From: Prevotella sp. UBA2754
GTDB taxonomy: Bacteria; Bacteroidota; Bacteroidia; Bacteroidales; Bacteroidaceae
Direction: 5' to 3'
Length of the DNA: 64,000 bases
Assembly: GCA_002353295.1 (NCBI GenBank)
Contig: DEJG01000019.1
Span: 104,977 to 168,976, forward strand
Shown here: one piece after another, positions 14,794 through 30,133 of the stretch
How positions within the stretch are numbered: the stretch's first letter is position 1
Layout of the letters: each line of letters opens with the position of its first letter
Translations under genes and position numbers: made by a program
The notes under the pieces: generated by a model
Told to the model about the DNA's origin: nothing
Databases searched by the model: none
What the model saw: only the letters and a program-made list of their open reading frames with translations

Positions 14794-14849
14794 CAAATTT
14801 CTAACTAACTTATTATCAACTATTCATTACTCATTCAGAATTCACGCTG

Positions 14850-14881: not shown

Positions 14882-14900
14882 AAAAAACTGAAAAAAAATC

Positions 14901-14914
14901 CGTAAACGTTTGCG
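14901..14914. promoter_or_regulatory. LacI-type operator overlapping the lacI -33 box
   Basis: CGTAAACGTTTGCG near-palindrome with CG centre; includes TTTG 14909-14912, which lies 20 nt before TATCTTTG 14933-14940. Confidence 0.7.
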
Positions 14915-14946
14915 TAGTTTCATATTTTTGTCTATCTTTGCACTTG

Positions 14947-16020: not shown

Positions 16021-16103
16021 CAGGGAACTATCTGTAAAGAACATTTCCAATGACTAAAAAGTCTGCCTATAAATTTTTTTGCTATTAACTAATATACGCG
16101 TTG

Positions 16104-19100
16104 ATGAATAAACGAATCATACTCCTTTCTATGATTTTTTGCATGGCGTTGACAGCTCATGCAATGATAGACGATATGAAGTTCAGCCGTTTGGATACTC
16201 GTGATGGTCTGAGTAATTCGCAGATTGTCAGTATCTTTCGTGATTCAAAAGGCTACATGTGGTTTAGTACGCCTTATGGATTGAACCGTTATGACGGGTA
16301 TCGTTTCAAAACTTTCTTTTCTGTAGCAAAAGATACAACAACGTTGCGCAGTAATTATTTGGACGAGGTTTATGAAGCATACGATGGGAAATTATGGATT
16401 CGCCAAAATATGAGTTATGTCATCTACAACCCCGTGACCGAGAAATTTGACCGTCATCCGGAAGTATGGTTGCATGAACATGGAATAAAGGGCGGCATAG
16501 AAAAGTTGTATATTGACTCCCAAAAGGATTTCTGGGTCAAAACGTATGATGAAGGTTTTTGGCACCTGAATCCCCGCACGGGTAAAGTCAAGCAATGGCG
16601 TTTTGGCTATGGTCCTCAAGAATTTCACAATGACTTTGGCGTCAGTACTTTCACAGAATTTGGGAAAAACGTTTTAGTATCGTCCTACAATGGTGAGATT
16701 TTCTGTTTCCATCGTGATGACAACAGGCTCAGTTGGAAGAGCGATTATCTTCGTAAAAAAGGACTGACTAATAATCAAGACTGTAAATTGCGTGTTGACA
16801 GGTGGGGAAATGTCTATGTGGTGACTACACAGACCACCTATGTGAAAACAAATGGCAGAATGTCGCGTTGGTACTACTCGCTGCCAGACTATTTACGTTC
16901 CCTCGGAATTCAAGAAGATCTTTCCGAAGTGGCGAGCGTTTGGGATGTGAAGTTTGATAAAAAGCATCGTATGTGGGTTGCTACCGACCATCATGGACTC
17001 ATCGTAATCGACCTGAAGACAAAAGAATTGCGACAGTTCCTACACGATAAACGTGATAATACAACAATCAGCGATAATACGATCCGTATTATTTATCCCG
17101 ATCAGATGGGACGTATGTGGCTTGGAACTTATGTGAATGGCATCAGCTGTTATACAGAGAGCAGTTCTAATTTCCGTAACTTGGAGTTAGGTAACATCAA
17201 TACTATCTGTGTTGACAAAACTGGTAACTATTGGTTGGGAACTAATGATGCTGGTATTATTTGTTTCAATCCCAAGACAGAGGAGAAAACAGTCTACAAT
17301 AAAGAAAGTCATGGTATTGGTTCCAATACGATGGTTGGTTCACTGGTAGCCAGCGACGGTTCGGTGTGGTTCGGAACTTACGAAGGCGGACTGATACGAA
17401 TCAAGGACGGACAGGTGAAGAACTATCGGGTGACTGGTAAGATGGGGGATTTGGCCAATGACAATATATGGACTATATATGAAGACCAGTGGGGGTATAT
17501 ATGGTTGGGAACGTTAGGAAGCGGTGTACAGCGGCTGAATCCTAAAACTGGTGAGATGAGCGTTCCCGTCAGCACCCAGAACTCACGTATTCCCAGTGAC
17601 TATATCTCCTCCATCACTCGTACGAAGAAAGGTTGGATGATGGTGTCGCACTCACTGTTCTATTCACTGATCAATCCGAAAACACGAAAGGTCATCAATC
17701 GGAATTTGACGGATAATAAGGATAACGTCACCATTACTGAGAATTCAATCAACGCGATGGAGGACAGCCGTGGGCTGGCTTGGCAGGGTTCTTCATCAGG
17801 TGCTACGGTTTGGGACCCCAAGAGCAATAGGGTTTATCTGTTGGATATGCGAAGCGGTTTATACGGTTCTACAGTCAATGGTATCATTGAAGACGAACGG
17901 CATACGATGTGGTTGGTAACAGATCATGGCGTGTCGAATGTCGTGCCTCAGAAGCAGTGGGATGGCAGCTATAAGTTTGTCGTTCGTAGCTATAACAATC
18001 ATGACGGTTTGCAAGATGGCCCGTATAATCAGCGCGCCATCTGTTATACATCTGACGGCAAGCTGTTGATAGGTGGGCAAGGTGGTTTAGACATTATCAA
18101 TCCTCGCAAAATGGGCAAGGGTAAGGGTGTTGAACATCCGATGTTCAGCGGACTGAAATTATTAGGACATGAAGTCGCTGTGGGGGAAAAAGTTAACGGA
18201 AAGGTGGTGTTGTCCAAGGCACTTGATTATAGCCGTGAACTGACGCTGAGTTTTAATGACGAATTCACCATTGAAATGGCCAGCAATAGCGCAGAGCCTC
18301 ATAACAGATCTCGTTTTATCTATAAGATGGCAGGTTACAGTGATATTTGGAAAAGTACAGAAGAAGTTAATCCCAATATCACTTATCAAAGCCTGCGTGC
18401 CGGATTTTACTATCTGTGTGTGCGTATGATGAATGATGATGGTACGATGGGCAGTGCTGAAAGTCGGATAGCCATCACCATTCAGCCACCTATTTGGCGC
18501 ACCCGTTGGATGATACTGCTTTATATGTTGCTGATAGCCATTGCTGCATGGTTCTGGCGTAAGTGGTATATGAAACGCCAGCAGCGAAGGCTGGATGCTG
18601 AAATATTGCTTCGTGAAACAGAAAAGCAATCGTGGATGGCAGAAATGCGTCGTAAGATGGCAGAAGGTCAAGTGGGTGCCACTGAACCTAAGCAACAGAA
18701 AGCTGTTCTGTCACTCCGTCTCCAGCAGGATGATATCGTTGCTTTCATTAAGAAGGTTTGTCGTGAGTTCAAGGCTCCCGATAATCTGCCATATAAATTG
18801 TCTATAGTTGCAGCTGTAGAGCATCTGGAAATGCTTTTCGATCCTGCAGAATTGAAACGAGCTCTTTATATTCTGTTTACTAACTCAGTCAAATTTGCTC
18901 CAACAGACAGTCGTATTAGTGTGGGGATTGCTCGCTTGGCAAATGGTGATGCCCAATTGCAAGTAGCTGATAATGGTATAGGAATTCCAGAACAGGTCAA
19001 AGATAATCTGTTTGATTCGATGAGTGAAGGGGAGGGCATCAGTCTGGATAAGGTAAAAGAGATTATAGATGCCCATCATGGAACCATTCATGTGGAGGAT

Positions 19101-19178
19101 AATCCTGGCGGTGGGTCTATTTTCGTCATAACATTACCTGCTGGTGAAATTATAGAAGAGGCAGAGGTTATAGAATAA
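16104..19178 (+). CDS. HTCS-like beta-propeller/Y_Y_Y sensor with HATPase_c but no HisKA, receiver or AraC domain
   Basis: Reg_prop repeats (GLSNSQIVSIFRDSKGYMWF, IYPDQMGRMWLGT), PPIWRT plus TM helix, then N-box FTNSVKF and DNGIGI; no H-box. Confidence 0.85.
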   Translation: MNKRIILLSMIFCMALTAHAMIDDMKFSRLDTRDGLSNSQIVSIFRDSKGYMWFSTPYGLNRYDGYRFKTFFSVAKDTTTLRSNYLDEVYEAYDGKLWIRQNMSYVIYNPVTEKFDRHPEVWLHEHGIKGGIEKLYIDSQKDFWVKTYDEGFWHLNPRTGKVKQWRFGYGPQEFHNDFGVSTFTEFGKNVLVSSYNGEIFCFHRDDNRLSWKSDYLRKKGLTNNQDCKLRVDRWGNVYVVTTQTTYVKTNGRMSRWYYSLPDYLRSLGIQEDLSEVASVWDVKFDKKHRMWVATDHHGLIVIDLKTKELRQFLHDKRDNTTISDNTIRIIYPDQMGRMWLGTYVNGISCYTESSSNFRNLELGNINTICVDKTGNYWLGTNDAGIICFNPKTEEKTVYNKESHGIGSNTMVGSLVASDGSVWFGTYEGGLIRIKDGQVKNYRVTGKMGDLANDNIWTIYEDQWGYIWLGTLGSGVQRLNPKTGEMSVPVSTQNSRIPSDYISSITRTKKGWMMVSHSLFYSLINPKTRKVINRNLTDNKDNVTITENSINAMEDSRGLAWQGSSSGATVWDPKSNRVYLLDMRSGLYGSTVNGIIEDERHTMWLVTDHGVSNVVPQKQWDGSYKFVVRSYNNHDGLQDGPYNQRAICYTSDGKLLIGGQGGLDIINPRKMGKGKGVEHPMFSGLKLLGHEVAVGEKVNGKVVLSKALDYSRELTLSFNDEFTIEMASNSAEPHNRSRFIYKMAGYSDIWKSTEEVNPNITYQSLRAGFYYLCVRMMNDDGTMGSAESRIAITIQPPIWRTRWMILLYMLLIAIAAWFWRKWYMKRQQRRLDAEILLRETEKQSWMAEMRRKMAEGQVGATEPKQQKAVLSLRLQQDDIVAFIKKVCREFKAPDNLPYKLSIVAAVEHLEMLFDPAELKRALYILFTNSVKFAPTDSRISVGIARLANGDAQLQVADNGIGIPEQVKDNLFDSMSEGEGISLDKVKEIIDAHHGTIHVEDNPGGGSIFVITLPAGEIIEEAEVIE

Positions 19179-19203
19179 TTTAATTAATAATTACATACGT
19201 TAC

Positions 19204-22200
19204 ATGAAAAAATTGAGATTTATAGTGTCGTGCCTATTGGCTGTGTCAGCATCGTCCCTTTGGGCTGCTGACTATACCGTGAATGGCAATTTTATTACGA
19301 TTCCTGTCAAAGATGCTAAAACTGATGGTGCCAAGGTGGTACGTCTGCAAGTAATTAATGACCGAATCATCCGTGTACAGGCCACATGCGAGGACATGTT
19401 CCCTCAGAAGAAAAGTCTGATGATAGTGGAACAAAAAGGCCAAGCTAAGTTTGATGTGAAACAGAAGGACGATAAGGTTTGTGTGAAAGCGCAGCAAGTG
19501 GAAGCTCGTGTTGATGTGGAGTCAGGTGAGATTGTATTCTATGATGCAACGGGCAAACAACTTCTCAAGGAATCTGATCAAGGCAAAAAATTCAAGAAGT
19601 TTACTGTTCCAGAACGTGAATACGGTATAAAAAATGGAGCTTCACTGACTGATGCCATGAAACACGGTATTCAGTGGCAGATGAAGTTTGACAGTCCTGC
19701 TGATGAAGCTTTCTACGGACTGGGTCAGCATCAGTCGGAAGAGTTTAATATGAAAGGAAAGAATGAAGACCTCTTCCAATATAACACCAAGGTATCAGTT
19801 CCCTTCGTACTTTCTAATAAGAATTATGGTATTCTATGGGATTCATATAGTTATTGTCGTTTTGGTAATCCCAATGATTATCTGCAACTGAATCGTGCCT
19901 TTAAACTCTATGACAAACAGGGTAAGGAAGGTCATCTGACAGGTACATATATTAGTAAGGAAGGTAAAAAGATTGTACGTGATGAGGATTCTATTTATTA
20001 CGAATATGGATTCCCTGCTACATCTGAAATTGCTGTAAAGACAGATAATGGCGGTATCAAGAATTTCCCCAAGGGATTGAATCTGCAAGGAGCTAATGTC
20101 GTGTATGAGGGCTTCCTTGAGCCAGAATGTTGTGGTAAGTGTGTCGGTAAAAAGCAGCTATATCAGTTCATACTTTATTATTCTGGCTATGTAAAGGTTT
20201 ATATTGATGGTAAGGAGGTCGTACCGGAGCGTTGGCGTACTGCCTGGAATCCAAACTCCTATAAATTTGCAACAGAATTGGCAAAAGGTAAGAAATCGCA
20301 GGTTCGCATTGAGTGGAAACCTGATGGTGGTGAAGCCTATTGTGGATTGCGTGTGGCAGAACCTCGGAGCGAAGAAGAGCGTGGAAAACTGAGTATCTGG
20401 AGTGAGATGGCTCGTGATATGGATTATTATTTCATTGCAGGTAAGAATTTTGATGAGGTCATCAGTGGCTATCGTACATTGACTGGTAAAGCTTCGCTCT
20501 ATCCTAAATGGGTGCTGGGCTTCTGGCAGAGCCGTGAGCGTTATAAGACGTCGCAGGAAATAGTAGAGACTCTTGCTGAGTTCCGTAAGCGTCATATTCC
20601 TATCGACAATATTGTGCAGGACTGGAATTACTGGAAAGAGGATCAGTGGGGAAGTCATCAGTTTGAATCGGAACGCTATCCAAACCCACAGGAGATGCTT
20701 GACAAGGTTCATGCCATGCATGGACGCTTCATGATCAGTGTATGGCCGAAGTTCTATGTCAATACCGATAACTACAAAGAACTCGATAAGAAGGGATGGA
20801 TGTACACCCAGGCTGTCAAGGACGATATCCACGATTGGGTAGGTCCTGGTTACGTAGGTGGTTTCTATGATGCTTACGATGCAGGGGCTCGTAAGATGTT
20901 CTGGCGCCAGATGGACGAGAATCTCTATACGAAATATAACAAAAATGGTGTAGCTGGTGTGGATGCCTGGTGGATGGATGCTTCAGAGCCCAATGTTCGC
21001 GACTGTACTCCGATGTGGTATCGTAAGGCCCTCTGCGGCCCAACAGCCCTAGGTACTTCTACAGAGTTCTTTAATGCATATTCTACAGTGAATGCTGATG
21101 CTATCTATAACGGGCAGCGTAGTGTCTATAAAGGAAAAGATAACGAGCCTCGTGTATTCCTGCTTACGCGTAGCGGCTTTGCTGGTGAACAGCGTTTCTC
21201 TACTGCAACATGGAGTGGTGATATCGGTACCCGTTGGGAAGATATGCGTGCACAGATGACGGCAGGTCTGAATTACTCAATGTCAGGTATTCCTTTCTGG
21301 GGCATGGACCAAGGTGGTTTCTGTGTAGAGAATCGTTATGTGGCTGCCCAGCAGTTGTTTGATCGTACTGGTCAGGAGAATGAAGACCTGAAGGAATGGC
21401 GTGAGCTGCAGACCCGTTGGAATCAGTTCGGTGCCTTTATTCCACTCTTCCGTGCCCATGGACAATGGCCTTTGCGTGAGATATGGAATATTGCTCCAGA
21501 CAATCATCCTGCTTATAAGTCGTTCGTTTACTACGATAAATTGCGCTATCGTCTGATGCCTTACATCTACTCAATGGCTGGATGGGCTCATTTCAAGGAC
21601 TATACGCTGATGCGTGCCTTGGTGATGGACTTTAACGGTGACAAGCAGGTAGAGAATATCGGTAACCAGTGGATGTTTGGTCCTGCACTGATGGCTTGTC
21701 CCGTCGGCTATTACAAGGCTCGTAACCGTAGCGTGTACTTCCCACAGCAGTGTGGATGGTATAACCTCTACACCAATGAATATGTAGAGGGTGGTCAGAC
21801 ACTCATCGTGGATGCTCCTTATGAGTGTATCCCTGTCTATGTCCGTGAGGGTGCTATCATTCCCTTTGGTCCTGAGATGGAGTGGAGTGATGAGAAACCT
21901 GCAGAACTTATTAACCTTTATGTGTATGCTGGTAAGGATGGCGAGTTCCAACTTTATGAAGATGAAGGAACTAATTATAATTACGAAAAAGGCAAGTATG
22001 CCACTATTGATATCACGTATGATGATACGTCACGCACAGTAAAGATCGGTGCACGCAAAGGTCAGTTCCCTGGTATGCTCAAGCAGCGCCGTTTCAATGT
22101 GGTGCTTATCTCCAAGGATGCTCCCAAAGCTCTCAATCTTGACAACCCAGAGGGAAAACTGGTGCAGTATAATGGTAAGGAAGTCAGTGTGAAGCTCTGA
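19204..22200 (+). CDS. GH31 alpha-xylosidase-like glycosidase with PA14 insertion
   Basis: Signal peptide, YGLGQHQ, IVQDWNYW, WWMDASEP nucleophile, WSGDI, PA14-like WRTAWNP...VRIEW segment. Confidence 0.88.
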   Translation: MKKLRFIVSCLLAVSASSLWAADYTVNGNFITIPVKDAKTDGAKVVRLQVINDRIIRVQATCEDMFPQKKSLMIVEQKGQAKFDVKQKDDKVCVKAQQVEARVDVESGEIVFYDATGKQLLKESDQGKKFKKFTVPEREYGIKNGASLTDAMKHGIQWQMKFDSPADEAFYGLGQHQSEEFNMKGKNEDLFQYNTKVSVPFVLSNKNYGILWDSYSYCRFGNPNDYLQLNRAFKLYDKQGKEGHLTGTYISKEGKKIVRDEDSIYYEYGFPATSEIAVKTDNGGIKNFPKGLNLQGANVVYEGFLEPECCGKCVGKKQLYQFILYYSGYVKVYIDGKEVVPERWRTAWNPNSYKFATELAKGKKSQVRIEWKPDGGEAYCGLRVAEPRSEEERGKLSIWSEMARDMDYYFIAGKNFDEVISGYRTLTGKASLYPKWVLGFWQSRERYKTSQEIVETLAEFRKRHIPIDNIVQDWNYWKEDQWGSHQFESERYPNPQEMLDKVHAMHGRFMISVWPKFYVNTDNYKELDKKGWMYTQAVKDDIHDWVGPGYVGGFYDAYDAGARKMFWRQMDENLYTKYNKNGVAGVDAWWMDASEPNVRDCTPMWYRKALCGPTALGTSTEFFNAYSTVNADAIYNGQRSVYKGKDNEPRVFLLTRSGFAGEQRFSTATWSGDIGTRWEDMRAQMTAGLNYSMSGIPFWGMDQGGFCVENRYVAAQQLFDRTGQENEDLKEWRELQTRWNQFGAFIPLFRAHGQWPLREIWNIAPDNHPAYKSFVYYDKLRYRLMPYIYSMAGWAHFKDYTLMRALVMDFNGDKQVENIGNQWMFGPALMACPVGYYKARNRSVYFPQQCGWYNLYTNEYVEGGQTLIVDAPYECIPVYVREGAIIPFGPEMEWSDEKPAELINLYVYAGKDGEFQLYEDEGTNYNYEKGKYATIDITYDDTSRTVKIGARKGQFPGMLKQRRFNVVLISKDAPKALNLDNPEGKLVQYNGKEVSVKL

Positions 22201-22219
22201 ATAATAGAACCCTAAATAC

Positions 22220-22462
22220 ATGACGCTTATGAAGAAGAAATGGAAAATTCTGGAGAATAGGGCAGTGCTGCAAATCTTGACATGGTTGGGCATTGGCTCC
22301 ACCTCACTCATCTTCATGGCATGCTACGGATCGGCTCCACGCAATTACCAGGTGGTGGAGGAGGAAGACTCTACCGTAGTGATGGTTGGTGACAGTGTCG
22401 TGATGGCTGTTGATGCAGCTGCCGATGTGGCTGCCGCCGATTCCAAAGCTGAGGCTAAGTAA
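22220..22462 (+). CDS. Small radical SAM-associated putative lipoprotein (TIGR04134-like)
   Basis: Basic N-terminus, hydrophobic stretch, IFMA|CYG lipobox (Cys codon 22322-22324); 5 nt upstream of the rSAM gene. Alternative start at 22229. Confidence 0.8.
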   Translation: MTLMKKKWKILENRAVLQILTWLGIGSTSLIFMACYGSAPRNYQVVEEEDSTVVMVGDSVVMAVDAAADVAAADSKAEAK

Positions 22463-22467
22463 AACGC

Positions 22468-23556
22468 ATGGCTATGAAGGCGACCCCACTGGCCCTTAAG
22501 AAGAAATTCGCCTTGGAACTTTGGCGAAAACGTGAACAGAACATGCTGCAGGAACATCCCCTGCAGCAACTGTTTTGGGAGTGTACGCTGCGCTGTAATC
22601 TCCGTTGCAGACATTGTGGCAGTGACTGCAAGACCCTTGCAGACCGTCAGGACATGCCCAAAGAAGACTTCCTGCGGGTACTTGACAGTGTAGCGCGGCG
22701 ATGCAATCCCCATCAAGTGTTCGTGGTTGTATCTGGTGGTGAGCCCTTGATGCGTGAAGACTTGGAGGAGTGTTGTTCTGCCATCTATGCGAAAGGATTT
22801 CCATGGGGAATGGTTACCAATGGTCTGTTACTTTCTGCCGGGCGTCTGGAGCGCCTGTTGAAGGCGGGTATGCACTCTATTACCATTAGTCTTGATGGGT
22901 TGGAGGATGACCACAACTGGATGCGAGGTCATCCGCATAGCTTTCAGTGTGTTGATGAGGCCATCTCCCTGTTGGTTCGGTTGCCGCAGGTATCCTTCGA
23001 TATAGTGACGTGTGTTAATCAGCGTAACTACCCCAAGCTTCCAGAGCTTCGTGACTATCTGATAGCAAAAGGTGTCCGTCATTGGCGCATCTTTACTGTT
23101 TTCCCAGTAGGCCGTGCGGCTCATGATCCGGAATTGCAGCTATCAGATGAGGAGTTCAAAGGCGTCTTCGAGTTTATCCGTTCAACCAGGCGCGAAGGCA
23201 ATATCGGGCTAAATTACGGTTGTGAGGGATTCCTGGGCAATTACGAGGGCGAAGTGCGCGACCATCTCTTCACCTGTCAGGCTGGTGTGACCATTGGCTC
23301 CGTCTTGATTGACGGTTCTATTTCAGCATGTACCAGTATTCGCAGCGACTATCACCAAGGTAATATCTATCACGATGACTTTATGGATGTTTGGGAGCGT
23401 CGTTTCCTCCCTTACAGGAACCATGAATGGATGCGCCGTGACCAGTGTGCCGACTGCTCTTATTTCCGCTATTGTCAAGGCAATGGCATGCATCTGCGTG
23501 ACGGCGATGGCGGTCTGTTGTTGTGTCATGTAAAGCGGCTGAACAGTACCGAGTAA
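22468..23556 (+). CDS. Radical SAM/SPASM enzyme of the rSAM/lipoprotein system (TIGR04133-like)
   Basis: CNLRCRHC (CxxxCxxC), SGGEPL, SPASM region CQAG..SISAC..CADCSYFRYCQG. Confidence 0.88.
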   Translation: MAMKATPLALKKKFALELWRKREQNMLQEHPLQQLFWECTLRCNLRCRHCGSDCKTLADRQDMPKEDFLRVLDSVARRCNPHQVFVVVSGGEPLMREDLEECCSAIYAKGFPWGMVTNGLLLSAGRLERLLKAGMHSITISLDGLEDDHNWMRGHPHSFQCVDEAISLLVRLPQVSFDIVTCVNQRNYPKLPELRDYLIAKGVRHWRIFTVFPVGRAAHDPELQLSDEEFKGVFEFIRSTRREGNIGLNYGCEGFLGNYEGEVRDHLFTCQAGVTIGSVLIDGSISACTSIRSDYHQGNIYHDDFMDVWERRFLPYRNHEWMRRDQCADCSYFRYCQGNGMHLRDGDGGLLLCHVKRLNSTE

Positions 23557-23622
23557 AAATTGTGGGTATTTTTTTACTTGTTTTGCTTCTTTTTATAGAA
23601 TAAAAGATGTATCTTTGCAATC

Positions 23623-25395
23623 ATGAAACTGAAATACCTATTACTAACCTTCCTTGCAGCTACCCAGATGGTGGTGATGCAAGCCGCAAATAAGACTGAC
23701 TATAAGGAATCGAAGGAATTTGTGACTCTTCGAGACTCAGTGCATCATGCTTTCAATAATGACGACAGCATCCGTTTCTTTAAGGCTGTTAAACAATTGG
23801 AGGAATACCTGCTAAAGCAAGATGACATGCACGCCTATTATACGCAGCGTTGCAATGAAATCGTCTTTGAACTGAACAGACAGCGTATATTCGAGGCTTA
23901 TAAGTTGGCTACTCAGTTGTCCAAAGAACTGACGGAGAAGAAACTCGACAAGGAGATGTATATGGCCATCAATATGATGGGACATGTATATAACTATAGT
24001 GGTGACAAAGCCAGTGCCAAGCAGTGCTTCTGGGAGGTGATACGCCGTATGGAGCAGGAAGGGTACAGGGAGAGTCAGCCACCTATTTACATGAATCTGG
24101 TGAATATCCTGATGGACGAAAACCCGCAGGAAGCCTTGCGCTTGATTGACCAGGCAGCATCCATAGCCCAAGAGACTTCACCCGAGCGGTTGTTCGATAT
24201 TGAGACACGCCGCACCCTGGCTTATTACCTGATGGGTGATAAGCAGCGGTTCCTGGAGGGCTATCAAGCCTACCGCGAAGGAGTGGCTAAGGGCTATTCC
24301 TCAGTTCATGGCCGCAGGTTGGAAGTCTATTATCAGGCCACCCTTGGAAATATTGACGAGGCGATTCGCTTAGCAGGAGAAAGTTCGGAGGACCCTCACG
24401 AGACGCAAGCGGAAATATTTGCGGGGGCAGGCAGGTGGCAAGAGGCTTTTGAAGCCCTTAAGAAAGGTACTGCCGAGACCGACTCCATCAACAGCCTGTT
24501 GCTGAGCAGTTCGATGCAGGGTATTCAGAACGAATTAAAGGCCTATGAGACAGAGCGCCAGGCTTTCAGGCGTTGGGTCTATGCCCTTGCATTTATCATC
24601 ATCCTCCTACTGTTGTTGGCACTGGCATTTGTGTATATTGTCCAGATGAGACGGCGTTATTGGCGCGAGATGGAAAAAGCTTACCAGCGAGTGCTGGAGT
24701 CCGACAAAATTAAGACGGCATTCATCCAGAATGTCAGTCATGAGGTACGTACACCGCTGAATATCATTAGCGGTTATGCGCAGATTATTGCAGACCCAGA
24801 CTATGACATTAGTCCCTATGAACGCAAGCGTATGGCCCATACGATGATAGATAACATGCAAGTCATCACTACGATGATTGATGAAGTTTTAGAGATTTCG
24901 CTTAGTGAATCTGCAGGGTTGGAAAAAGATCTGACGAACTATCCCTGCAATGAATTGTTGCGACGTTTGTTGGACGAGTTCAAGAAAACGATAGGAGAGA
25001 CTCCTCTGGCGATTCAATATGAAAGTACCCTCGATGACCAGTTTACCATCTCCACACATGAAGGCATTATGCGTCGCATTATTCATCCACTGATCGATAA
25101 TGCCGTAAAGAATACAAAGAAAGGACAGGTGACTCTGCGCTGTTCCGCCACTCCCAGCCATTTGGTCATCCAAGTGGAAGATACTGGTTGTGGTATCCCA
25201 GCCAATCAGGCAGAACATATATTTGACCGATTCGTAAAACTTGATACTTTTAAAGAAGGCATGGGACTTGGCTTGACATTTAGTCGTGCTATGGCTAATC
25301 GTTTAGGTGGTAATGTGCGTCTTGATACGTCCTATGCAGGACCTGGTGCCCGTTTTGAGGTCATAATTCCATTTGAAAATCAAGAAAAGAAATAA
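23623..25395 (+). CDS. Sensor histidine kinase with helical (TPR-like) periplasmic domain
   Basis: Signal peptide, TM, FIQNVSHEVRTPLN, DNAVK, DTGCGI, GMGLGL. Confidence 0.9.
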   Translation: MKLKYLLLTFLAATQMVVMQAANKTDYKESKEFVTLRDSVHHAFNNDDSIRFFKAVKQLEEYLLKQDDMHAYYTQRCNEIVFELNRQRIFEAYKLATQLSKELTEKKLDKEMYMAINMMGHVYNYSGDKASAKQCFWEVIRRMEQEGYRESQPPIYMNLVNILMDENPQEALRLIDQAASIAQETSPERLFDIETRRTLAYYLMGDKQRFLEGYQAYREGVAKGYSSVHGRRLEVYYQATLGNIDEAIRLAGESSEDPHETQAEIFAGAGRWQEAFEALKKGTAETDSINSLLLSSSMQGIQNELKAYETERQAFRRWVYALAFIIILLLLLALAFVYIVQMRRRYWREMEKAYQRVLESDKIKTAFIQNVSHEVRTPLNIISGYAQIIADPDYDISPYERKRMAHTMIDNMQVITTMIDEVLEISLSESAGLEKDLTNYPCNELLRRLLDEFKKTIGETPLAIQYESTLDDQFTISTHEGIMRRIIHPLIDNAVKNTKKGQVTLRCSATPSHLVIQVEDTGCGIPANQAEHIFDRFVKLDTFKEGMGLGLTFSRAMANRLGGNVRLDTSYAGPGARFEVIIPFENQEKK

Positions 25396-25401
25396 GATGT
25401 C

Positions 25402-27816
25402 ATGAAAAGAATGATTTTTCTATTGGTAGTGCTGTTGACAACTACCATTATCCTACAGGCTCGTCATCGCGAGAATTTTGATAAAGGATGGCGGTTTGTC
25501 CTAGCTGATTCAGCACAGATGTCAAGCCCAACATATAGTGATGCTCATTGGCGTCAACTTAATCTGCCTCATGATTGGGCAGTGGAAGGCGATTTCTTGG
25601 CATCTAACCCCTCGGGAGCTGGCGGAGGAGCACTGCCAGGCGGTATAGGCTGGTATCGGAAAACGTTCACTCTTTCAGGTAATGACGCTCCACAGAGCCG
25701 TTATTTCATCGAGTTTGATGGCGTATATATGAATTCTACGGTCTATGTAAACGGACAGGAAGTAGGCCATCGACCTTATGGCTACAGTTCATTCGAATAT
25801 GAAATAACACAGTTTCTGAAGAAGGGAAGTAATGTGATAGCTGTGCGTGTAGACAATAGTGACCAACCTAATTCACGTTGGTATTCAGGTTGTGGAATCT
25901 ATCGCCATGTGTGGTTTACCAAGACCGGTAAGGTGCGTGTGGCACATTGGGGAACGCATGTAAAAACCCTCCCCGTTGCTATAGCTGACAGGAAGTGGTG
26001 GACGGTGGCAACCTATGTGACGCTTGATGGCGTCACAAACGAGAAGGCACAGGTGGTAAACACACTGTATGATGTCGCAGGAAAAAAGATAGGGAATGCT
26101 AAAGGACTTTCGTCAACCATAAGGGTTACAGAGCCCCAGCTATGGTCACCAGCAGTTCCCCATACTTATAAGCTTCAGACAGAAGTGGTGGTCAATGGAA
26201 AAACTGTTGATACCTACGAGACGCTGACGGCTTTCCGTGACTTCCGTTTCGATGCGCAAACGGGATTCTGGCTTAATGGCAAAAATATGAAGTTGAATGG
26301 CGTTTGCGAACACCATGACTTTGGTTGTTTAGGTGCTGTCATCAACGAGGATGCCATGCATCGCAAACTCTCCAAACTGAAGACGATGGGGGTTAATGCC
26401 ATCCGATCGTCACATAATCCGCCTGCTCCCGAACTGCTGAACATGTGCGACACGATGGGATTCATCGTCATGGATGAGAGTTTTGACATGTGGCGCCGTC
26501 GCAAGACTCAGAACGACTATGCCCGTTTCTTCGATGAGTGGCACGAGCGTGACCTTTCCGATTTAATACTCCGCGACCGCAATCACCCATGTATTCTGAT
26601 GTGGTCGATAGGCAACGAAGTGCTGGAGCAGTGGTCAAGTGCCGATGCAGACACGCTGACACTCGAACAGGCTAACCTTATCCTGAATGCAGGACATGAT
26701 GCTTCCACCCTTGCTAAGGACGGGGAGATGAGTGTTCAAACTCTCTTGGCCGAACACTTGGCGGATATAGTACACCGCTATGACACAACACGTCCTATAA
26801 CAGCTGGTTGTAACGAACCTTCTCCTGGTAATCATTTGTTTAAGGGAAAAGCTCTTGATATCATAGGTTTTAACTACCATCATGAGTGGATTAAGGATGT
26901 TCCGAAGAATTTCCCCAATCGTCCCTTTATCATGACGGAAAGTGTGTCAGCCCTACAAACTACTGGATTCTATATGATGCCTTCCGATAAGATTTTTAAG
27001 GCTCCACAAGAATGGTGGCTACCCTATACCGACCCTTCGATGATGTGTTCGGCTTACGACAATATGCATGCTTCGTGGTCGACAACGCACGAGCAAAACT
27101 GGGATGTCGTGAAGCATACCCCCTATTGTGGCGGACAGTTTATTTGGACAGGATTCGACTATATCGGCGAACCTACGCCCTATAGTTTCCCTGCCCGTAG
27201 CAGCTACTTCGGTATTATCGACTTGGCAGGTCAGCCCAAGGATGTCTATTACATGTATCAGAGCGAATGGACAGAAAAACCGGTACTCCACCTTTTCCCG
27301 CACTGGAATTGGTTGGATGGACAGGAAATAGATATGTGGTGTTATTATAACCAAGCCGATGAGGTGGAACTCTTTATCAACGGCAAATCACAAGGCGTGC
27401 GTGCCAAGAAGGACAGTCACCAGTATCATGTAATGTGGCGTGTCAAGTTCGAGTCAGGTGAAGTGAAGGCAGTGGCTCGCAAAGATGGAAAAATTGTGCG
27501 CGAACAGGTAATCAAAACAGCAGGCCAGCCTGACCGTATCCAACTGTCTGTGGACTATCAGGGTAAGAACACTACATGGGTGAAAGCTACCGTTGTGGAT
27601 AAAGATGGCAACCGATGTCCTTGGGCAGAGAATCAGGTGTTCTTTGAGACCGATGCTACTATCATCGGTGTTGATAATGGTTGTCAGTTCTCCATGGAGC
27701 GCTTCAAGGATGATAAACGTAAGGCATTCTTCGGGCGTTGTTTCGTCGTTCTTAATGGTCATGGTACCCTGACCGCTAAAGCAATAGGATTGAAATCAAA
27801 TACTATCAAACTATGA
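25402..27816 (+). CDS. GH2 beta-galactosidase-like glycosidase
   Basis: LPHDW, GVCEHHD, IRSSHNPP, WSIGNE acid/base, FIWTGFDYIGEP. Confidence 0.9.
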   Translation: MKRMIFLLVVLLTTTIILQARHRENFDKGWRFVLADSAQMSSPTYSDAHWRQLNLPHDWAVEGDFLASNPSGAGGGALPGGIGWYRKTFTLSGNDAPQSRYFIEFDGVYMNSTVYVNGQEVGHRPYGYSSFEYEITQFLKKGSNVIAVRVDNSDQPNSRWYSGCGIYRHVWFTKTGKVRVAHWGTHVKTLPVAIADRKWWTVATYVTLDGVTNEKAQVVNTLYDVAGKKIGNAKGLSSTIRVTEPQLWSPAVPHTYKLQTEVVVNGKTVDTYETLTAFRDFRFDAQTGFWLNGKNMKLNGVCEHHDFGCLGAVINEDAMHRKLSKLKTMGVNAIRSSHNPPAPELLNMCDTMGFIVMDESFDMWRRRKTQNDYARFFDEWHERDLSDLILRDRNHPCILMWSIGNEVLEQWSSADADTLTLEQANLILNAGHDASTLAKDGEMSVQTLLAEHLADIVHRYDTTRPITAGCNEPSPGNHLFKGKALDIIGFNYHHEWIKDVPKNFPNRPFIMTESVSALQTTGFYMMPSDKIFKAPQEWWLPYTDPSMMCSAYDNMHASWSTTHEQNWDVVKHTPYCGGQFIWTGFDYIGEPTPYSFPARSSYFGIIDLAGQPKDVYYMYQSEWTEKPVLHLFPHWNWLDGQEIDMWCYYNQADEVELFINGKSQGVRAKKDSHQYHVMWRVKFESGEVKAVARKDGKIVREQVIKTAGQPDRIQLSVDYQGKNTTWVKATVVDKDGNRCPWAENQVFFETDATIIGVDNGCQFSMERFKDDKRKAFFGRCFVVLNGHGTLTAKAIGLKSNTIKL

Positions 27817-30128
27817 AAAAGTTTTTCTATATTTTAGGATTCATGGGCTTCTCGCTGTGTGCTGAGGCTCAGTTGCAAACTTCTGCAGGAATCCAGTACC
27901 TCCAGTGTATGCCTAAAGACCAATCGGCTGATTTCTCAGACTTGAGTAACACCTATTTCCTGGCTGATTCGTTGGTGTCGTTTGATGCAGCGAAAGGTGA
28001 GGGTAAACTGAATTGGAAGCGTTATCGTCTCTCACCACGTCAAGCGTTTAACCTCAATGGCTATTGGCCAGTTAGGATGCATACGCTGGACTTCCCAGAT
28101 ACGGAATACGATAATGATCCGAACTTATCGTTTAAGATTGATTTTGTGAGTCCTCGTTGTGTGAGAATTCGTTTGGCTACTTCGCCTATTGAGGCTCCGC
28201 GTAAGGACAGCGAAAGTATCATGCTGGCAGGGGCGGTGCCTTCGTCTTCTGCTTGGCGGTTGGTTAGCAACAATAATATTGTTGCATACAAGACAGAATA
28301 TGGCACAGTTGAGATACAGAAATATCCTTGGCGCATTGTGCTGAAGGATAAGAACGGGAAAATCATGACGCAGACCCGTCACCTCATTGATAATGACTCC
28401 TCACAGGTAAAGTTGCTTCCCTTCTCATTTATCAAGCGTGGTTCCGATAATTCGCGCAGCATCAATCCCGTGTTGACCATTGCTCCAGGTGAACGCATCT
28501 ATGGTTGTGGTGAATCCTTCGGAGCATTGAATAAAGTGGGACAGAAAGTTCAAATCATGGTGACTGACCCTCAGGGACCTGAGACAGACGGACAGTACAA
28601 GCCCGTGCCGTTCTTCTTCTCGAACCGTGGCTATGGTGTATTCCTGCATACCTCAGCCCCCATTACCGCCGATTTCGGCGCATCTTATATCGGAGCAGAT
28701 AGGTTGTTCATGGCTGATGAGCAGTTGGATATGTTTGTTTTCTTTGGAGAACCAAAAGATATTCTTAACGAATATACCAACATCACGGGCAAGTCGCCTA
28801 TGTTACCTTTATGGACCTTTGGAACATGGATGAGTCGTATCACCTATTTTTCGCAGGAGGAAGGATTGGAGATAGCCAAGCAACTGCGTCAGCACAAGAT
28901 TCCAAGTGATGTCATTCATTTCGATACAGGATGGTTCGGTGTTGACTGGCAGTGCGACTACGAGTTTGCCAAGGATCGTTTCAAGAATCCCAAGGGCATG
29001 CTCGACCAGATGAAGCGCGACGGCTTCCACACCTGTCTGTGGCAGTTGCCTTACTTCACTCCCAAGAACCGTTTCTTCCGTGAGATCGTTGACGGAGGTA
29101 TGGCTGTTAAGAATGCAGCCGGCAGTCTGCCCTACGAGGATGCAGTACTCGACTTCACCAACCCGAAGACCGTCAGTTGGTATCAGTCGAAGATTGAAGG
29201 ACTCATGAAGTTAGGCGTTGCCACCATCAAGTGCGACTTTGGTGAGGCTGCACCTTATGATGGTTTCTATCACAATGGACGTGGTGGTCTCTATGAGCAT
29301 AATCTTTATCCTGTTCGTTATAATAAAGCTTTATGGGAACAAGTAGAGCGCTCGCATCCAGGCGAGGGCGTCATCTGGGCTCGCAGTGCATGGGCAGGTT
29401 CACAGCGTTATGCCCTCCATTGGGGAGGCGATGCAGCCACCACTAATACGGGTATGCTGGGCGACCTCCGTGGCGGGTTGTCATTCGGACTCAGCGGTTT
29501 CTCCTTCTGGAGTCATGATATGGGTGGTTTTGTGACGGCATCTCCAGAAGATATTTATCGCCGTTGGCTGCCCTTTGGCTTCCTGTCAAGTCATACGCGT
29601 GCTCATGGAGCACCTCCCACCGAACCTTGGCTTATCAGCGAGAGCTTCACGAAGGCTTTCCGTCAGGCTGCCGAGATGAAGTATAAATTGATGCCTTACG
29701 TTTATGCACAAGCTAAGGATTGTACGGAACGAGGACTGCCGATGGTACGTGCACTGTTGGTGGAATTCCCAGAAGATCCAGGTGCTTGGCTTGTAGAGGA
29801 TGAGTATATGTTTGGTTCACAGATACTCGTTGCTCCTTTGCTAGAGTCTGGTGATAGCCGTACTGTCTACTTACCACGCGGCAAATGGATTGACTATCAG
29901 AGTGGAAAAGTTTATGAAGGTGGTTACCAAACCGTCAAAGTGGGAGAGATTCCTGCTGTGATTTTGGTTCGTGACGGCTCATTGATTCCTCATGCACCTC
30001 TTGCTCAGCGTACAGACCAGATTCAGTGGGACAAGGTTGAGATGAAAGTGTATAAGGCTGATGCAAAGACATGCACGGGATTACTCTACAAACCTGGTGA
30101 CAGTCAGTTACAGACGATTACAAACTAA
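27813..30128 (+). CDS. GH31 alpha-xylosidase (YicI-like)
   Basis: IHFDTGW, IKCDFGE nucleophile, WGGD, FWSHDMGGF, HTRAHG. Confidence 0.88.
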   Translation: MKKFFYILGFMGFSLCAEAQLQTSAGIQYLQCMPKDQSADFSDLSNTYFLADSLVSFDAAKGEGKLNWKRYRLSPRQAFNLNGYWPVRMHTLDFPDTEYDNDPNLSFKIDFVSPRCVRIRLATSPIEAPRKDSESIMLAGAVPSSSAWRLVSNNNIVAYKTEYGTVEIQKYPWRIVLKDKNGKIMTQTRHLIDNDSSQVKLLPFSFIKRGSDNSRSINPVLTIAPGERIYGCGESFGALNKVGQKVQIMVTDPQGPETDGQYKPVPFFFSNRGYGVFLHTSAPITADFGASYIGADRLFMADEQLDMFVFFGEPKDILNEYTNITGKSPMLPLWTFGTWMSRITYFSQEEGLEIAKQLRQHKIPSDVIHFDTGWFGVDWQCDYEFAKDRFKNPKGMLDQMKRDGFHTCLWQLPYFTPKNRFFREIVDGGMAVKNAAGSLPYEDAVLDFTNPKTVSWYQSKIEGLMKLGVATIKCDFGEAAPYDGFYHNGRGGLYEHNLYPVRYNKALWEQVERSHPGEGVIWARSAWAGSQRYALHWGGDAATTNTGMLGDLRGGLSFGLSGFSFWSHDMGGFVTASPEDIYRRWLPFGFLSSHTRAHGAPPTEPWLISESFTKAFRQAAEMKYKLMPYVYAQAKDCTERGLPMVRALLVEFPEDPGAWLVEDEYMFGSQILVAPLLESGDSRTVYLPRGKWIDYQSGKVYEGGYQTVKVGEIPAVILVRDGSLIPHAPLAQRTDQIQWDKVEMKVYKADAKTCTGLLYKPGDSQLQTITN

Positions 30129-30133
30129 TATTC

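What the first reader, a model, noticed from the sequence alone, without database searches (positions are those of the whole stretch)
22220..23556. Radical SAM/SPASM enzyme plus mini-lipoprotein with Cys-Tyr-Gly at the lipidation site: candidate splicease-modified lipopeptide
Seen: an 80-aa ORF with lipobox IFMA|C followed directly by YG (mature part about 46 aa: CYGSAPRNYQVVEEEDS...AAADSKAEAK), 5 nt before a CxxxCxxC/SPASM enzyme. Known: this pairing corresponds to TIGR04133/TIGR04134, which were defined bioinformatically; PlpX-type rSAM/SPASM spliceases excise tyramine at X-Y-G motifs to give alpha-keto-beta-amino residues, a protease-inhibitor warhead. Inference: the product may be a membrane-anchored ketoamide lipopeptide, for example a tethered protease inhibitor. 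The mature region here is unusually short, with nothing but an acidic/Ala tail after the motif.
Basis: partly seen in the sequence, partly recalled or inferred. Interest (0 to 1): 0.75.

Follow-up and report, generated by a model that had tools for sequence, protein, structure and literature searches.

The report
Radical SAM enzyme with Tyr-Gly mini-lipoprotein
A rumen Prevotella carries a two-gene unit, a radical SAM enzyme and a tiny lipoprotein that is almost certainly its substrate, whose only family-wide constant is a Tyr-Gly motif, here placed directly after the lipid-attachment cysteine; the chemistry is untested.

Summary
An 80-aa ORF (22220-22462; conserved start probably 22229, 77 aa) has a rule-passing lipobox F-M-A-C followed by Y-G. 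It ends 5 nt before a 362-aa rSAM/SPASM gene (22468-23556).

The enzyme is a clear TIGR04133 member (589 bits, cutoff 425). The small ORF is not a TIGR04134 member by HMM. It is a stripped-down equivalent that keeps only the signal peptide and the motif.

In 80 related Bacteroidales loci, 76 adjacent partners were scored. Tyr is present in all by selection; Gly follows in 74, Pro 1-3 residues later in all. The residue before Tyr varies (E, C, M, L, V, A).

The enzyme tree groups by partner type. More distant TIGR04133-like enzymes carry the same motif fused in cis. This makes an enzyme-substrate pair very likely.

The small ORF is under purifying selection and is present in metatranscriptome assemblies.

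The X-Y-G pattern fits splicease logic. However, the enzyme is only 27% identical to PlpX and is no closer to spliceases than to AhbD/NirJ-type enzymes. Tyramine excision is therefore a reasonable but unproven guess, and the protease-inhibitor role is speculation.

I could not check whether Scott et al. 2022 already lists this family.

The parts
22220..22462 (+). Small prelipoprotein gene (80 aa from the first ATG; the conserved start is probably Met4 at 22229, giving 77 aa). It is the presumed substrate of the adjacent rSAM enzyme.
   Evidence: ORF and sequence; pN/pS 0.05-0.16 against L002-L004; called as a 77/80-aa 'hypothetical protein' on hundreds of contigs; covered by metatranscriptome contigs.
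22220..22321 (+). Signal peptide (residues 1-34): K-rich n-region, a 20-residue hydrophobic region, and lipobox F32-M33-A34 before Cys35. It may also serve as the enzyme's recognition leader (inference).
   Evidence: PS51257-style rule passes in the window and all 10 clade relatives. F-M-A-C is invariant in the clade.
22322..22348 (+). Motif C35-Y36-G37-S-A-P40-R-N-Y43: the lipidation Cys directly followed by the family-wide Tyr-Gly, then Pro and an aromatic residue at Y+7.
   Evidence: (76 partners; each site was selected with the pattern Y[GA]-x(0-3)-P, so Tyr and the nearby Pro are selection criteria, not independent counts): G follows Y in 74 and A in 2; first P is 1-3 residues after G in 76; an aromatic residue sits at Y+7 in 64. 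X is E in 49, C in 12, M in 5, L in 5, V in 4 and A in 1. The same C|YG arrangement recurs in L022 (downstream ORF) and L091.
22349..22459 (+). Acidic Val/Ala/Asp/Glu-rich tail (residues 44-80). It has no recognisable domain and replaces the ~120-aa beta-sandwich of canonical TIGR04134 partners.
   Evidence: no Pfam or NCBIfam hit; canonical partners hit TIGR04134 and, weakly, CarboxypepD_reg; the tail is variable among clade members.
22463..22467 (+). 5-nt spacer between the small ORF's stop and the rSAM start, implying a bicistronic arrangement.
   Evidence: sequence; spacing of -7 to +25 nt in most related loci. RNA-derived contig X36 spans 22180-23477.
22468..23556 (+). TIGR04133-family radical SAM/SPASM enzyme (362 aa).
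   Evidence: TIGR04133 at 589.3 bits, cutoff 425, full-length match 1-349/350. Radical_SAM 70.4 bits, SPASM 27.4 bits.
22594..22617 (+). CxxxCxxC (C43-N-L-R-C47-R-H-C50), the radical SAM [4Fe-4S] cluster-binding motif.
   Evidence: Nearly invariant in the family alignment.
23221..23526 (+). SPASM-type auxiliary cluster region with seven Cys (C252, C270, C288, C327, C330, C336, C353). It contains C-x12-G-x4-C and C-x2-C-x5-C, but the fourth Cys of the usual C-x3-C is missing (Gly).
   Evidence: Cys positions compared with PlpX, which has the canonical C-x2-C-x5-C-x3-C; conserved Cys columns. Pfam SPASM.

Best explanation
This is a self-contained two-gene maturation module. The TIGR04133 rSAM/SPASM enzyme acts in the cytoplasm on the nascent 77/80-aa prelipoprotein encoded 5 nt upstream. 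It targets Tyr36 in the invariant Tyr-Gly motif. The modified protein is then exported by Sec and diacylglyceryl-modified on Cys35. LspA cleaves it after Ala34, leaving a ~46-residue acidic lipopeptide anchored in a membrane.

The most likely chemistry, by analogy with X-Y-G spliceases, is excision of a tyramine equivalent. That would fuse the carbonyl of residue X (here the lipobox Cys) to the Tyr carbonyl as an alpha-keto-beta-amino amide.

Shown: gene pair, family membership, motif conservation, enzyme/partner co-variation, cis-fusions, purifying selection, and presence in RNA-derived assemblies.

Inferred: the substrate relationship (about 0.85), Tyr as the modified residue (about 0.6), lipidation at Cys35 (about 0.7), splicease-type chemistry (about 0.4), and any protease-inhibitor role (low).
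For: Enzyme identity: TIGR04133 at 589 bits, with Radical_SAM and SPASM domains.

Partner conservation:
- An adjacent signal-peptide/lipoprotein-like ORF carrying the motif was found in 76 of 81 loci, upstream in 68 and downstream in 8.
- The C-terminal parts are very different: beta-sandwich, coiled coil, BACON, or a short acidic tail.
- The constants (sites selected as Y[GA]-x(0-3)-P) are Y, then G (74 of 76), then P within 1-3 residues, plus an aromatic residue at Y+7 in 64 of 76. X varies.
- The background YG frequency is 0.0025 per residue.
- Several partners carry 2-3 tandem YG sites (L010, L011, L018, L005/6, L043, L088).

Co-evolution: the NJ tree of the enzymes groups them by partner class, and the window's clade is the C-Y-G short class.

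Fusions in TIGR04133-like enzymes, all with TIGR04133 as top family at 267-392 bits:
- P0127/P0212 has three N-terminal V-Y-G..P..F sites.
- P0160/P0213 (Clostridia, at least 6 contigs) has a C-terminal L-Y-G-P-P-P-M-N-Y.
- P0173 has I-Y-G-P-P.

Distant unfused pairs show the same logic. L088 has a 76-aa lipoprotein with two K-Y-G-P-P sites. L091 has lipobox A-T-C followed directly by Y-G.

Gene reality: pN/pS 0.05-0.16, and RNA-derived contigs span both genes.

Splicease analogy:
- Published spliceases are rSAM/SPASM enzymes acting at X-Y-G with variable X, often at several sites per precursor (PMC11414181, PMC9811515, PMC11626197).
- PlpX's fifth-best NCBIfam family is TIGR04133, at 148 bits over the full length.
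- Window rSAM against PlpX gives 100 bits, E 9e-28. That is above any solved structure, where the best is 50 bits.

Precedent for an rSAM/SPASM enzyme modifying Sec-exported proteins before export: anaerobic sulfatase-maturating enzymes (established knowledge, not tested here).
Against: - There is no experimental datum for this family. NCBIfam (June 2026) still labels both models hypothetical equivalogs, and no open-access paper mentions them.
- The enzyme is not specifically related to spliceases. TIGR04103 scores 113 bits (cutoff 725), on a par with TIGR04053 (121), AhbD (118.5) and NirJ2 (115). In other family members the second-best family varies between AhbD, NirJ2 and TIGR04103.
- The SPASM Cys pattern differs from PlpX.
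- The motif is longer than X-Y-G, since Pro and the +7 aromatic are also conserved. That could point to a cross-link or simply to recognition.
- Gly is replaced by Ala in L014 and L067, and in the downstream ORF of L090.
- In this clade, X is the Cys that must also be lipidated. Whether Lgt and LspA accept a ketoamide next to it is unknown.
- AlphaFold2 of the cis-fused P0213 left the YG tail unplaced, with pLDDT below 50.
- The Myxococcota relative L085 shows no YG partner on its 5-kb contig.
Confidence: 0.42

Rival explanations
1. The enzyme-substrate pair is the same and Tyr-Gly is still the target, but the chemistry is not tyramine excision. Options are:
- epimerisation to D-Tyr;
- a C-C or C-O cross-link from Tyr36 (ring or C-beta) to the conserved aromatic residue at +7 or to another residue;
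- beta-hydroxylation;
- backbone scission at Tyr-Gly.
Any of these would stiffen, protect or process the tether next to the lipid anchor.
For: - The enzyme is no closer to spliceases than to AhbD/NirJ/TIGR04053.
- The SPASM Cys pattern differs from PlpX.
- The motif extends beyond X-Y-G: Pro lies 1-3 residues after Gly in 76/76 (a selection criterion) and an aromatic residue sits at Y+7 in 64/76.
- Ala occasionally replaces Gly.
- SPASM enzymes are known to perform many different Tyr- or aromatic-directed reactions, for example PqqE, MftC and the cyclophane-forming enzymes (established knowledge).
Against: - The variable-X / constant-Y / near-constant-G pattern with tandem repeats is exactly the published splicease signature (PMC9811515, PMC11626197).
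- The +7 aromatic is absent in the coiled-coil class (V-Y-G-G-P-N-M-M-E-E), so an obligatory Tyr-to-aromatic cross-link is unlikely.
- Residue Y+2 can be Gly, which excludes a three-residue cyclophane onto its C-beta.
Confidence: 0.4
2. The small ORF is not the substrate. It is an accessory partner, for example a membrane tether or regulator, and the enzyme acts on another molecule such as a tetrapyrrole-like cofactor or a different protein.
For: The next-best families include the heme-modifying AhbD and NirJ enzymes. One relative, L085, has no visible YG partner.
Against: - Scores to AhbD and NirJ are far below their cutoffs (118 against 500).
- The motif, not the fold, is what is conserved in partners.
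- The motif is fused in cis to the enzyme in three independent lineages that lack a signal peptide.
- Enzyme phylogeny tracks partner class.
- No other gene is conserved next to the pair.
Confidence: 0.08
3. The small ORF is a decaying remnant of a canonical TIGR04134 gene, and/or Cys35 is not lipidated, so the N-terminus stays as an uncleaved membrane anchor.
For: - The beta-sandwich domain has been lost and the tail is low in complexity.
- The ancestral lipobox position (LGFSSC) has degenerated to LGIGST, and L007 still has both Cys.
- A truncated partner exists in L050.
Against: - Purifying selection is strong.
- The short form is kept in 10 species-level genomes, with F-M-A-C-Y-G invariant.
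- It occurs on hundreds of contigs and in RNA-derived assemblies.
- The new Cys passes the lipobox rule.
- C|YG lipoboxes recur independently in L022 and L091.
Confidence: 0.07

Closest known systems
TIGR04133 / TIGR04134 'rSAM/lipoprotein system' of Bacteroidales (bioinformatically defined NCBIfam/TIGRFAMs pair, function unknown)
   Same: The enzyme is a full-length, above-cutoff TIGR04133 member. It is adjacent to a lipoprotein-type partner. The partner shares the signal peptide and the Tyr-Gly-(x)-Pro...aromatic motif with canonical TIGR04134 proteins.
   Different: - The partner fails the TIGR04134 HMM completely.
- It lacks the ~120-aa CarboxypepD_reg-like beta-sandwich and has a 37-residue acidic tail instead.
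- The lipobox Cys sits immediately before Tyr-Gly. In canonical members it lies 8-15 residues upstream (E-Y-G-T-P).
Tyramine spliceases and spliceotides (PlpX/PlpY-PlpA, PcpX, RhaX/RasX; TIGR04103; Morinaka 2018, Scott 2022, PMC11414181, PMC11626197)
   Same: Both are rSAM/SPASM enzymes encoded next to a ribosomal substrate. In both the operative motif is X-Y-G with variable X, often repeated. The enzymes align over their full length (27% identity, 100 bits). PlpX scores 148 bits on TIGR04133.
   Different: - The enzyme is not a TIGR04103 or TIGR03913 member (113 and 103 bits against cutoffs of 725 and 592).
- It is no closer to spliceases than to AhbD/NirJ.
- There is no PlpY-like gene and no Nif11/NHLP leader; the N-terminal element is a Sec/lipoprotein signal peptide.
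- The SPASM region lacks the C-x3-C cysteine.
- The product would be an exported lipoprotein rather than a released peptide.
- The chemistry is untested.
Anaerobic sulfatase-maturating enzymes (anSME; founding SPASM members)
   Same: A cytoplasmic rSAM/SPASM enzyme modifies a short motif in a protein that carries a Sec signal peptide, before export. These enzymes are common in Bacteroidales (established knowledge).
   Different: The motif and residue differ: anSME converts C/S-x-P/A-x-R to formylglycine. One anSME serves many sulfatases, whereas here each enzyme has its own adjacent partner.
Tyr-directed SPASM maturases PqqE and MftC
   Same: These are SPASM enzymes acting on a Tyr in a small ribosomal peptide. 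They appear among the weaker NCBIfam matches (MftC 97.5 bits, PqqE 62 bits).
   Different: Their motifs differ (Glu...Tyr cross-link in PqqA; C-terminal Val-Tyr decarboxylation in MftA). They need RRE/PqqD-type chaperones, which are absent here. Their products are cofactors, not lipoproteins.

Membership tests
TIGR04133 (rSAM_w_lipo) | Whole-protein HMM score at or above the curated cutoff (425 bits), full-length match | tested here: met
   589.3 bits, E 2.1e-177, residues 10-358 on profile 1-349/350.
TIGR04133 (rSAM_w_lipo) | Radical SAM CxxxCxxC motif plus a C-terminal SPASM-type Cys-rich domain | tested here: met
   PF04055 70.4 bits and PF13186 27.4 bits. C43/C47/C50 and seven C-terminal Cys.
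TIGR04133 (rSAM_w_lipo) | Encoded next to a putative lipoprotein partner | tested here: met
   an ORF passing the lipobox rule lies 5 nt upstream; the same adjacency holds in 76 of 81 loci.
TIGR04134 (lipo_with_rSAM) | HMM score at or above the cutoff (39.8 bits) | tested here: not met
   no hit at E<=10. Positive controls: canonical partners score 163.9 and 113.8 bits, and a 71-aa short form scores 27.9 bits.
TIGR04134 (lipo_with_rSAM) | About 150 aa with a beta-sandwich (CarboxypepD_reg-like) body after the N-terminal tether | tested here: not met
   The mature part is 46 aa with no domain hit. Canonical partners give weak PF13620 hits.
TIGR04134 (lipo_with_rSAM) | Lipoprotein signal peptide and a conserved Tyr-Gly-x-Pro motif shortly after the lipobox | tested here: met
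   (lipobox rule). (motif statistics). The window has C-Y-G-S-A-P-R-N-Y.
Tyramine spliceases (PlpX type, TIGR04103 / related TIGR03913) | Membership of the splicease HMM families, or specific phylogenetic clustering with proven spliceases | tested here: not met
   TIGR04103 113 bits (cutoff 725) and TIGR03913 103 bits (cutoff 592); the enzyme is equidistant to AhbD, NirJ2, TIGR04053 and TIGR04103. No reference-rich tree could be built.
Tyramine spliceases (PlpX type) | Adjacent ribosomal substrate with an X-Y-G site or sites: Y and G conserved, X variable | tested here: met
   Y in all 76 partners (by selection), G in 74/76, six different X residues, and several partners with 2-3 sites.
Tyramine spliceases (PlpX type) | Loss of a tyramine equivalent (-135.06 Da) giving an alpha-keto-beta-amino amide | not testable with these tools
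   This needs co-expression and LC-MS/MS. The published signature is described in PMC11626197.
Tyramine spliceases (PlpX type) | An activating helix from a Y protein (RRE-like) or from the precursor leader that binds the enzyme | tested here: inconclusive
   There is no PlpY-like ORF in the two-gene module. The signal peptide could supply a helix, but the cis-fused relatives lack one. AlphaFold2 of the fused P0213 did not place the tail.

The most novel reading that the evidence does not exclude
In this Prevotella clade the rSAM would splice at the lipobox itself. Cys35-Tyr36-Gly37 would become an N-terminal S-diacylglyceryl beta-cysteine alpha-ketoamide, that is, an electrophilic warhead welded to the lipid anchor, with the Sec/lipoprotein signal peptide doubling as the maturase leader.

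More broadly, TIGR04133-like enzymes (363 clusters at 50% identity with E<=1e-30) would form a separate, multi-phylum family of protein Tyr-Gly-modifying rSAM enzymes. They show cis-fused substrates and JAMM-peptidase fusions, and would be distinct from the PlpX-type spliceases.
Probability: 0.2. Interest if true: 0.85.

Novelty: new variant of a known kind. Interest (0 to 1): 0.6.

Why it matters
The TIGR04133/TIGR04134 pair has been an annotated orphan system in gut and rumen Bacteroidales for more than a decade. This analysis points to the enzyme's target as a short Tyr-Gly-(x)-Pro motif, not the lipoprotein's folded body.

The window offers the minimal natural substrate: 46 mature residues with the motif directly at the lipidation site. 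That makes the chemistry testable with a single co-expression and one mass measurement.

If the chemistry is tyramine splicing, abundant gut and rumen commensals would display backbone-ketoamide lipoproteins on or in their envelopes. That would be a new type of lipoprotein modification, a possible anchored protease trap, and a compact splice tag for protein engineering. If it is something else, it is a new Tyr-directed rSAM reaction on exported proteins.

Tried and rejected
- HMM assignment of the small ORF gave nothing (NCBIfam and Pfam, up to E<=10).
- Literature searches for TIGR04133/TIGR04134, the family names, and spliceases in Bacteroidota found nothing relevant. The single 'TIGR04134' hit is a typo for a T9SS C-terminal domain model.
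- Scott et al. 2022 (Chem 8:2659) is not held. It mined all rSAM/SPASM proteins for YG-rich neighbours and reported 27 proven and 939 predicted systems. I could not check whether this family is listed there.
- No splicease structure is in the PDB. The best solved relatives are BlsE, MoaA, PqqE, SuiB, SkfB and CteB, at no more than 50 bits.
- AlphaFold2 of the natural enzyme-motif fusion P0213 gave a good enzyme core (pLDDT 84.5). The YG tail (residues 394-411) was below 50, so there is no docking information.
- Sigma-70 promoter and terminator scans were at background level and are not suited to Bacteroidota.
- Flanking genes (GH31, histidine kinase, GH2, hybrid sensor) are conserved only in the four closest Prevotella relatives. 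They were rejected as part of the system.
- A three-residue cyclophane was rejected because Y+2 can be Gly.
- A Cys-dependent thioether or formylglycine reaction was rejected because the Cys before or near Tyr is not conserved across the family.
- The Myxococcota relative (L085) and L093 gave no partner on their short contigs.
Full report
**What is there.** The window holds, on the + strand, an 80-codon ORF at 22220-22462 and, 5 nt later, a 362-codon ORF at 22468-23556.

The small protein reads MTLMKKKWKILENRAVLQILTWLGIGSTSLIFMA-CYGSAPRNYQVVEEEDSTVVMVGDSVVMAVDAAADVAAADSKAEAK. A PROSITE PS51257-style lipobox rule is satisfied with Cys35. Relatives and most public gene calls start at Met4 (22229), giving 77 aa.

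The large protein has CNLRCRHC (C43/C47/C50) and seven C-terminal cysteines. It matches Pfam Radical_SAM and SPASM. It scores 589.3 bits on NCBIfam TIGR04133, whose cutoff is 425, over the whole profile.

**Is the small ORF a gene?** Yes, on three grounds.
- Against the orthologues in L002-L004, the first 48 codons show pS 0.5-0.78 but pN/pS of only 0.05-0.16.
- The exact protein and its near relatives are called on hundreds of public contigs. They are always named 'hypothetical protein', while the neighbour is named 'TIGR04133 family radical SAM/SPASM protein' or 'radical SAM enzyme (rSAM/lipoprotein system)'.
- The locus comes from rumen and gut Prevotella. RNA-derived assemblies contain it: two metatranscriptome contigs span 21700-24000, and one (X36) runs 22180-23477, from just upstream of the small ORF far into the rSAM gene. 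Contig data cannot exclude DNA carry-over, so this supports co-transcription but does not prove it.

**Relation to TIGR04134.** The model is in the library and works. Canonical partners from Bacteroides clarus (L047) and a Prevotella (L012) score 163.9 and 113.8 bits against a cutoff of 39.8. A 71-aa short partner (L024) scores 27.9 bits. The window ORF and its clade relatives give no hit at all.

Canonical partners are about 150 aa. They consist of a signal peptide ending in LGFSSC, a short acidic linker, the motif (C/V/A)-E-Y-G-(T/S)-P, and a weakly CarboxypepD_reg-like beta-sandwich ending in KLKKK. The window protein keeps only the signal peptide and the motif. It is a positional and evolutionary equivalent, not a member by the family's own test.

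**What is conserved.** I fetched 80 related loci out of 234 hits among one-genome-per-species contigs. All are Bacteroidales apart from a few bins with implausible labels. I then extracted the ORFs flanking the enzyme. An adjacent hydrophobic-leader (signal-peptide/lipoprotein-like) partner with the motif was found in 76 of the 81 loci (the 80 fetched plus the window): upstream in 68 and downstream in 8. L022 and L072 have one on each side.

The bodies of the partners differ completely. They include a beta-sandwich, a coiled coil (L035, L041, L042, L048, L049, L069), a BACON domain (L014), a Pro/Arg-rich form (L043), and short acidic tails (15 partners of 85 aa or less).

Each motif site was picked with the pattern Y[GA]-x(0-3)-P, so Tyr and the nearby Pro are selection criteria rather than independent counts. 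With that caveat, the constants are:
- Tyr, in 76/76;
- the following Gly, in 74/76 (Ala in L014 and L067);
- a Pro 1-3 residues after Gly, in 76/76;
- an aromatic residue at Y+7, in 64/76.

The residue before Tyr varies: E 49, C 12, M 5, L 5, V 4, A 1. Several partners carry two or three sites in tandem. Examples are L011 (DEYGVIPMYGAIAEYGVP), L010, L018, L005/6 and L043. The YG dipeptide occurs at 0.0025 per residue in the window's long ORFs.

**Enzyme and partner belong together.** Three lines of evidence support this.
- A neighbour-joining tree of the 80-odd enzymes groups them by partner class. The window sits in a clade of 11 enzymes (the window, L001-L008, L079 and L014). The first ten have a short partner with F-M-A-C-Y-G invariant. 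L014 has a 133-aa F-M-A-C-Y-A partner with a BACON domain.
- The flanking genes (GH31, histidine kinases, GH2, a hybrid sensor, and further off an S8 subtilase) are shared only with the four closest Prevotella relatives. The module is therefore the two genes alone.
- A search of 1.84 billion representative proteins gave 363 clusters at E<=1e-30. Eight sampled members all have TIGR04133 as their top family, at 267-392 bits, below the curated cutoff but far above the next family.

Among these more distant members there are natural fusions:
- P0127/P0212 carries three sites (VVYGCATPRNF, RVYGVATPDFF, EVYGTPSSSFY) N-terminal to the enzyme.
- P0160/P0213, from Clostridia MAGs on at least six contigs, has ...TLYGPPPMNYRF... 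in a C-terminal tail between CxxC pairs.
- P0173 has ...VIYGPPEM....

Unfused distant pairs repeat the theme:
- L088 has a 76-aa lipoprotein, LMGC-GGFSAKYGPPTSTKYGPPAYN.
- L091 has a 249-aa lipoprotein whose lipobox Cys is followed directly by Tyr-Gly (IYATC-YGVYV), as in the window.
- L090 has a signal-peptide protein with MYAPPP.

The motif is therefore almost certainly what the enzyme recognises and modifies. The C|Y-G arrangement has arisen more than once.

**How the window's variant arose.** In the clade the ancestral lipobox position reads LGIGST, with the Cys lost. Six hydrophobic residues later, F-M-A-C precedes Y-G. L007 still has both cysteines (LGFSC-TFLFMA-CYG).

The window's Cys thus corresponds to the non-lipobox Cys of canonical C-E-Y-G. 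The former linker has become part of the hydrophobic core, and a new rule-passing lipobox was created right at the motif. The window differs from all ten clade relatives at one motif position: Y-G-S-A-P instead of Y-G-P-A-P, or Y-A-P-A-M in L014.

**Chemistry.** Published spliceases (PlpX, PcpX, RhaX/RasX) are rSAM/SPASM enzymes that excise a tyramine equivalent at X-Y-G. X is variable and there are often several sites. The product is an alpha-keto-beta-amino amide with protease-inhibiting activity (PMC11414181, PMC9811515, PMC11626197, PMC11002830). The conservation pattern found here is the same.

To test kinship I recovered PlpX. The route was PlpA3 (sequence from the supplement of PMC10533398), then protein P0001, then locus L081.
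- PlpX scores 824 bits on TIGR04103. It then scores 395 on TIGR03913, 168 on AhbD, 152 on TIGR04053 and 148 on TIGR04133.
- The window enzyme scores 121, 118.5, 115, 113 and 103 bits on TIGR04053, AhbD, NirJ2, TIGR04103 and TIGR03913 respectively.
- The two proteins are 27% identical over 288 residues, at 100 bits.
- Other TIGR04133-like proteins have AhbD, NirJ2 or TIGR04103 as their second family, in no consistent order.
- PlpX has the canonical C-x2-C-x5-C-x3-C. The window enzyme lacks the last Cys and has an extra upstream one.

So the enzyme lies in the same broad SPASM neighbourhood as spliceases but is not specifically allied to them. No solved structure is closer than 50 bits. I rate splicease-type chemistry at about 0.4. 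Another Tyr-Gly-directed reaction is about equally likely.

**Likely course of events.** Only the gene pair, motif conservation, selection and transcription evidence are shown; every step below is inferred.
1. The two genes are transcribed together.
2. The cytoplasmic enzyme binds the unfolded precursor and uses SAM-derived 5'-deoxyadenosyl radical chemistry on Tyr36.
3. The precursor is exported by Sec and lipidated on Cys35.
4. It is cleaved after Ala34.

The acidic cluster starts 11 residues after the Cys. In canonical partners acidic residues follow the lipobox within a few positions. From general knowledge of Bacteroidota lipoprotein export signals, that may mean a different final location. 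I did not test this.

**Novelty and limits.** The TIGR04133/TIGR04134 pairing is a known, uncharacterised, bioinformatically defined system. NCBIfam of June 2026 still names both generically, and the open literature held here never mentions them.

Scott et al. 2022 screened all rSAM/SPASM proteins for YG-rich neighbours and reported 27 proven and 939 predicted splicease systems in 189 genera (PMC10849128, PMC10533398). The paper is not held. This family may already be among their predictions; I cannot tell.

What appears new here:
- the minimal C-Y-G lipopeptide class, unannotated in public records;
- its recurrence in distant lineages;
- the cis-fused and JAMM-fused relatives.

I file it as a new variant of a known kind.

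Noticed in passing
P0118, P0125, P0126, P0149, P0166, P0168, P0177 (relatives); locus L087: TIGR04133-like rSAM enzymes of about 545-560 aa carry a C-terminal domain with a JAMM/MPN+ metalloprotease signature (H-x-H-P-x6-S-x2-D). In L087 the upstream 256-aa repeat protein ends ...SAYYGAPLAN.... This suggests maturation coupled to proteolysis.
   Followed up: partly
P0127/P0212; P0160/P0213 (loci L082-L084); P0173 (locus L086): These are natural fusions of the Tyr-Gly-Pro motif to the enzyme itself. One has three N-terminal sites. Two have a C-terminal tail, which in the Clostridia form lies between zinc-ribbon-like CxxC pairs. All lack a signal peptide, so self-modification or a cytoplasmic role is possible.
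   Followed up: partly
P0077, P0121, P0123, P0189, P0194, P0196, P0205: Proteins of 730-850 aa in which a TIGR04133-like rSAM domain is joined to a second large region. In P0077, P0121 and P0123 an N-terminal second CxxxCxxC rSAM domain makes a tandem rSAM-rSAM architecture.
   Followed up: no
L024 and L048 (both Prevotella sp. UBA4330); L022; L072: One genome can hold two paralogous systems with different partner classes (a short E-Y-G form and a coiled-coil M-Y-G-G-P-N form). In L022 and L072 a single enzyme is flanked by two partners. In L022 these are a canonical one upstream and a 67-aa F-T-A-C-Y-G short one downstream.
   Followed up: partly
window 22328-22333 (Gly37-Ser38): The window has Y-G-S-A-P where nine of the ten clade relatives have Y-G-P-A/R-P and the tenth, L014, has Y-A-P-A-M. 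It is a single non-synonymous difference inside the otherwise invariant motif.
   Followed up: no
window 22544-22568: An inverted repeat with near-perfect 9-11-bp arms, TGCTGCAGG-AACATCC-CCTGCAGCA, lies about 76 nt into the rSAM coding region (encoding MLQEHPLQQ). The terminator scan flagged it on both strands. It may be chance or a regulatory or RNA-stability element.
   Followed up: no
window 22634-23464: One low-depth metatranscriptome contig (run X27, depth 6.2, 29 nt on the short side) joins 22634 to 23464, skipping 829 nt inside the rSAM gene. This is probably an assembly artefact or a rare deletion variant.
   Followed up: no
window 11938-15972: An S8 subtilase (714 aa), a LuxR-type regulator and a LacI-type regulator lie 6-10 kb upstream of the pair. 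However, this neighbourhood is not conserved with the rSAM module.
   Followed up: partly
window 16101-32005: A carbohydrate-utilisation neighbourhood surrounds the pair: a hybrid sensor with Reg_prop/Y_Y_Y repeats and an HATPase domain, two GH31 genes, a GH2, two TPR-type histidine kinases, and a sodium:solute symporter on the opposite strand. The rSAM pair sits between the first GH31 and a kinase, as an apparent insertion shared only by the closest relatives.
   Followed up: partly
L030, L044, L061: Three loci whose enzymes are 61-63% identical to the window's and whose partners match the Alistipes-type loci carry record titles naming Methanomethylophilaceae, Bulleidia and Eggerthellaceae bins. 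These are probably mis-binned Bacteroidales contigs.
   Followed up: no
L050 (Bacteroides propionicigenes): The partner is cut to 63 aa just after the motif, compared with the near-identical 154-aa partner of B. clarus (L047). This looks like a frameshifted or truncated copy.
   Followed up: no
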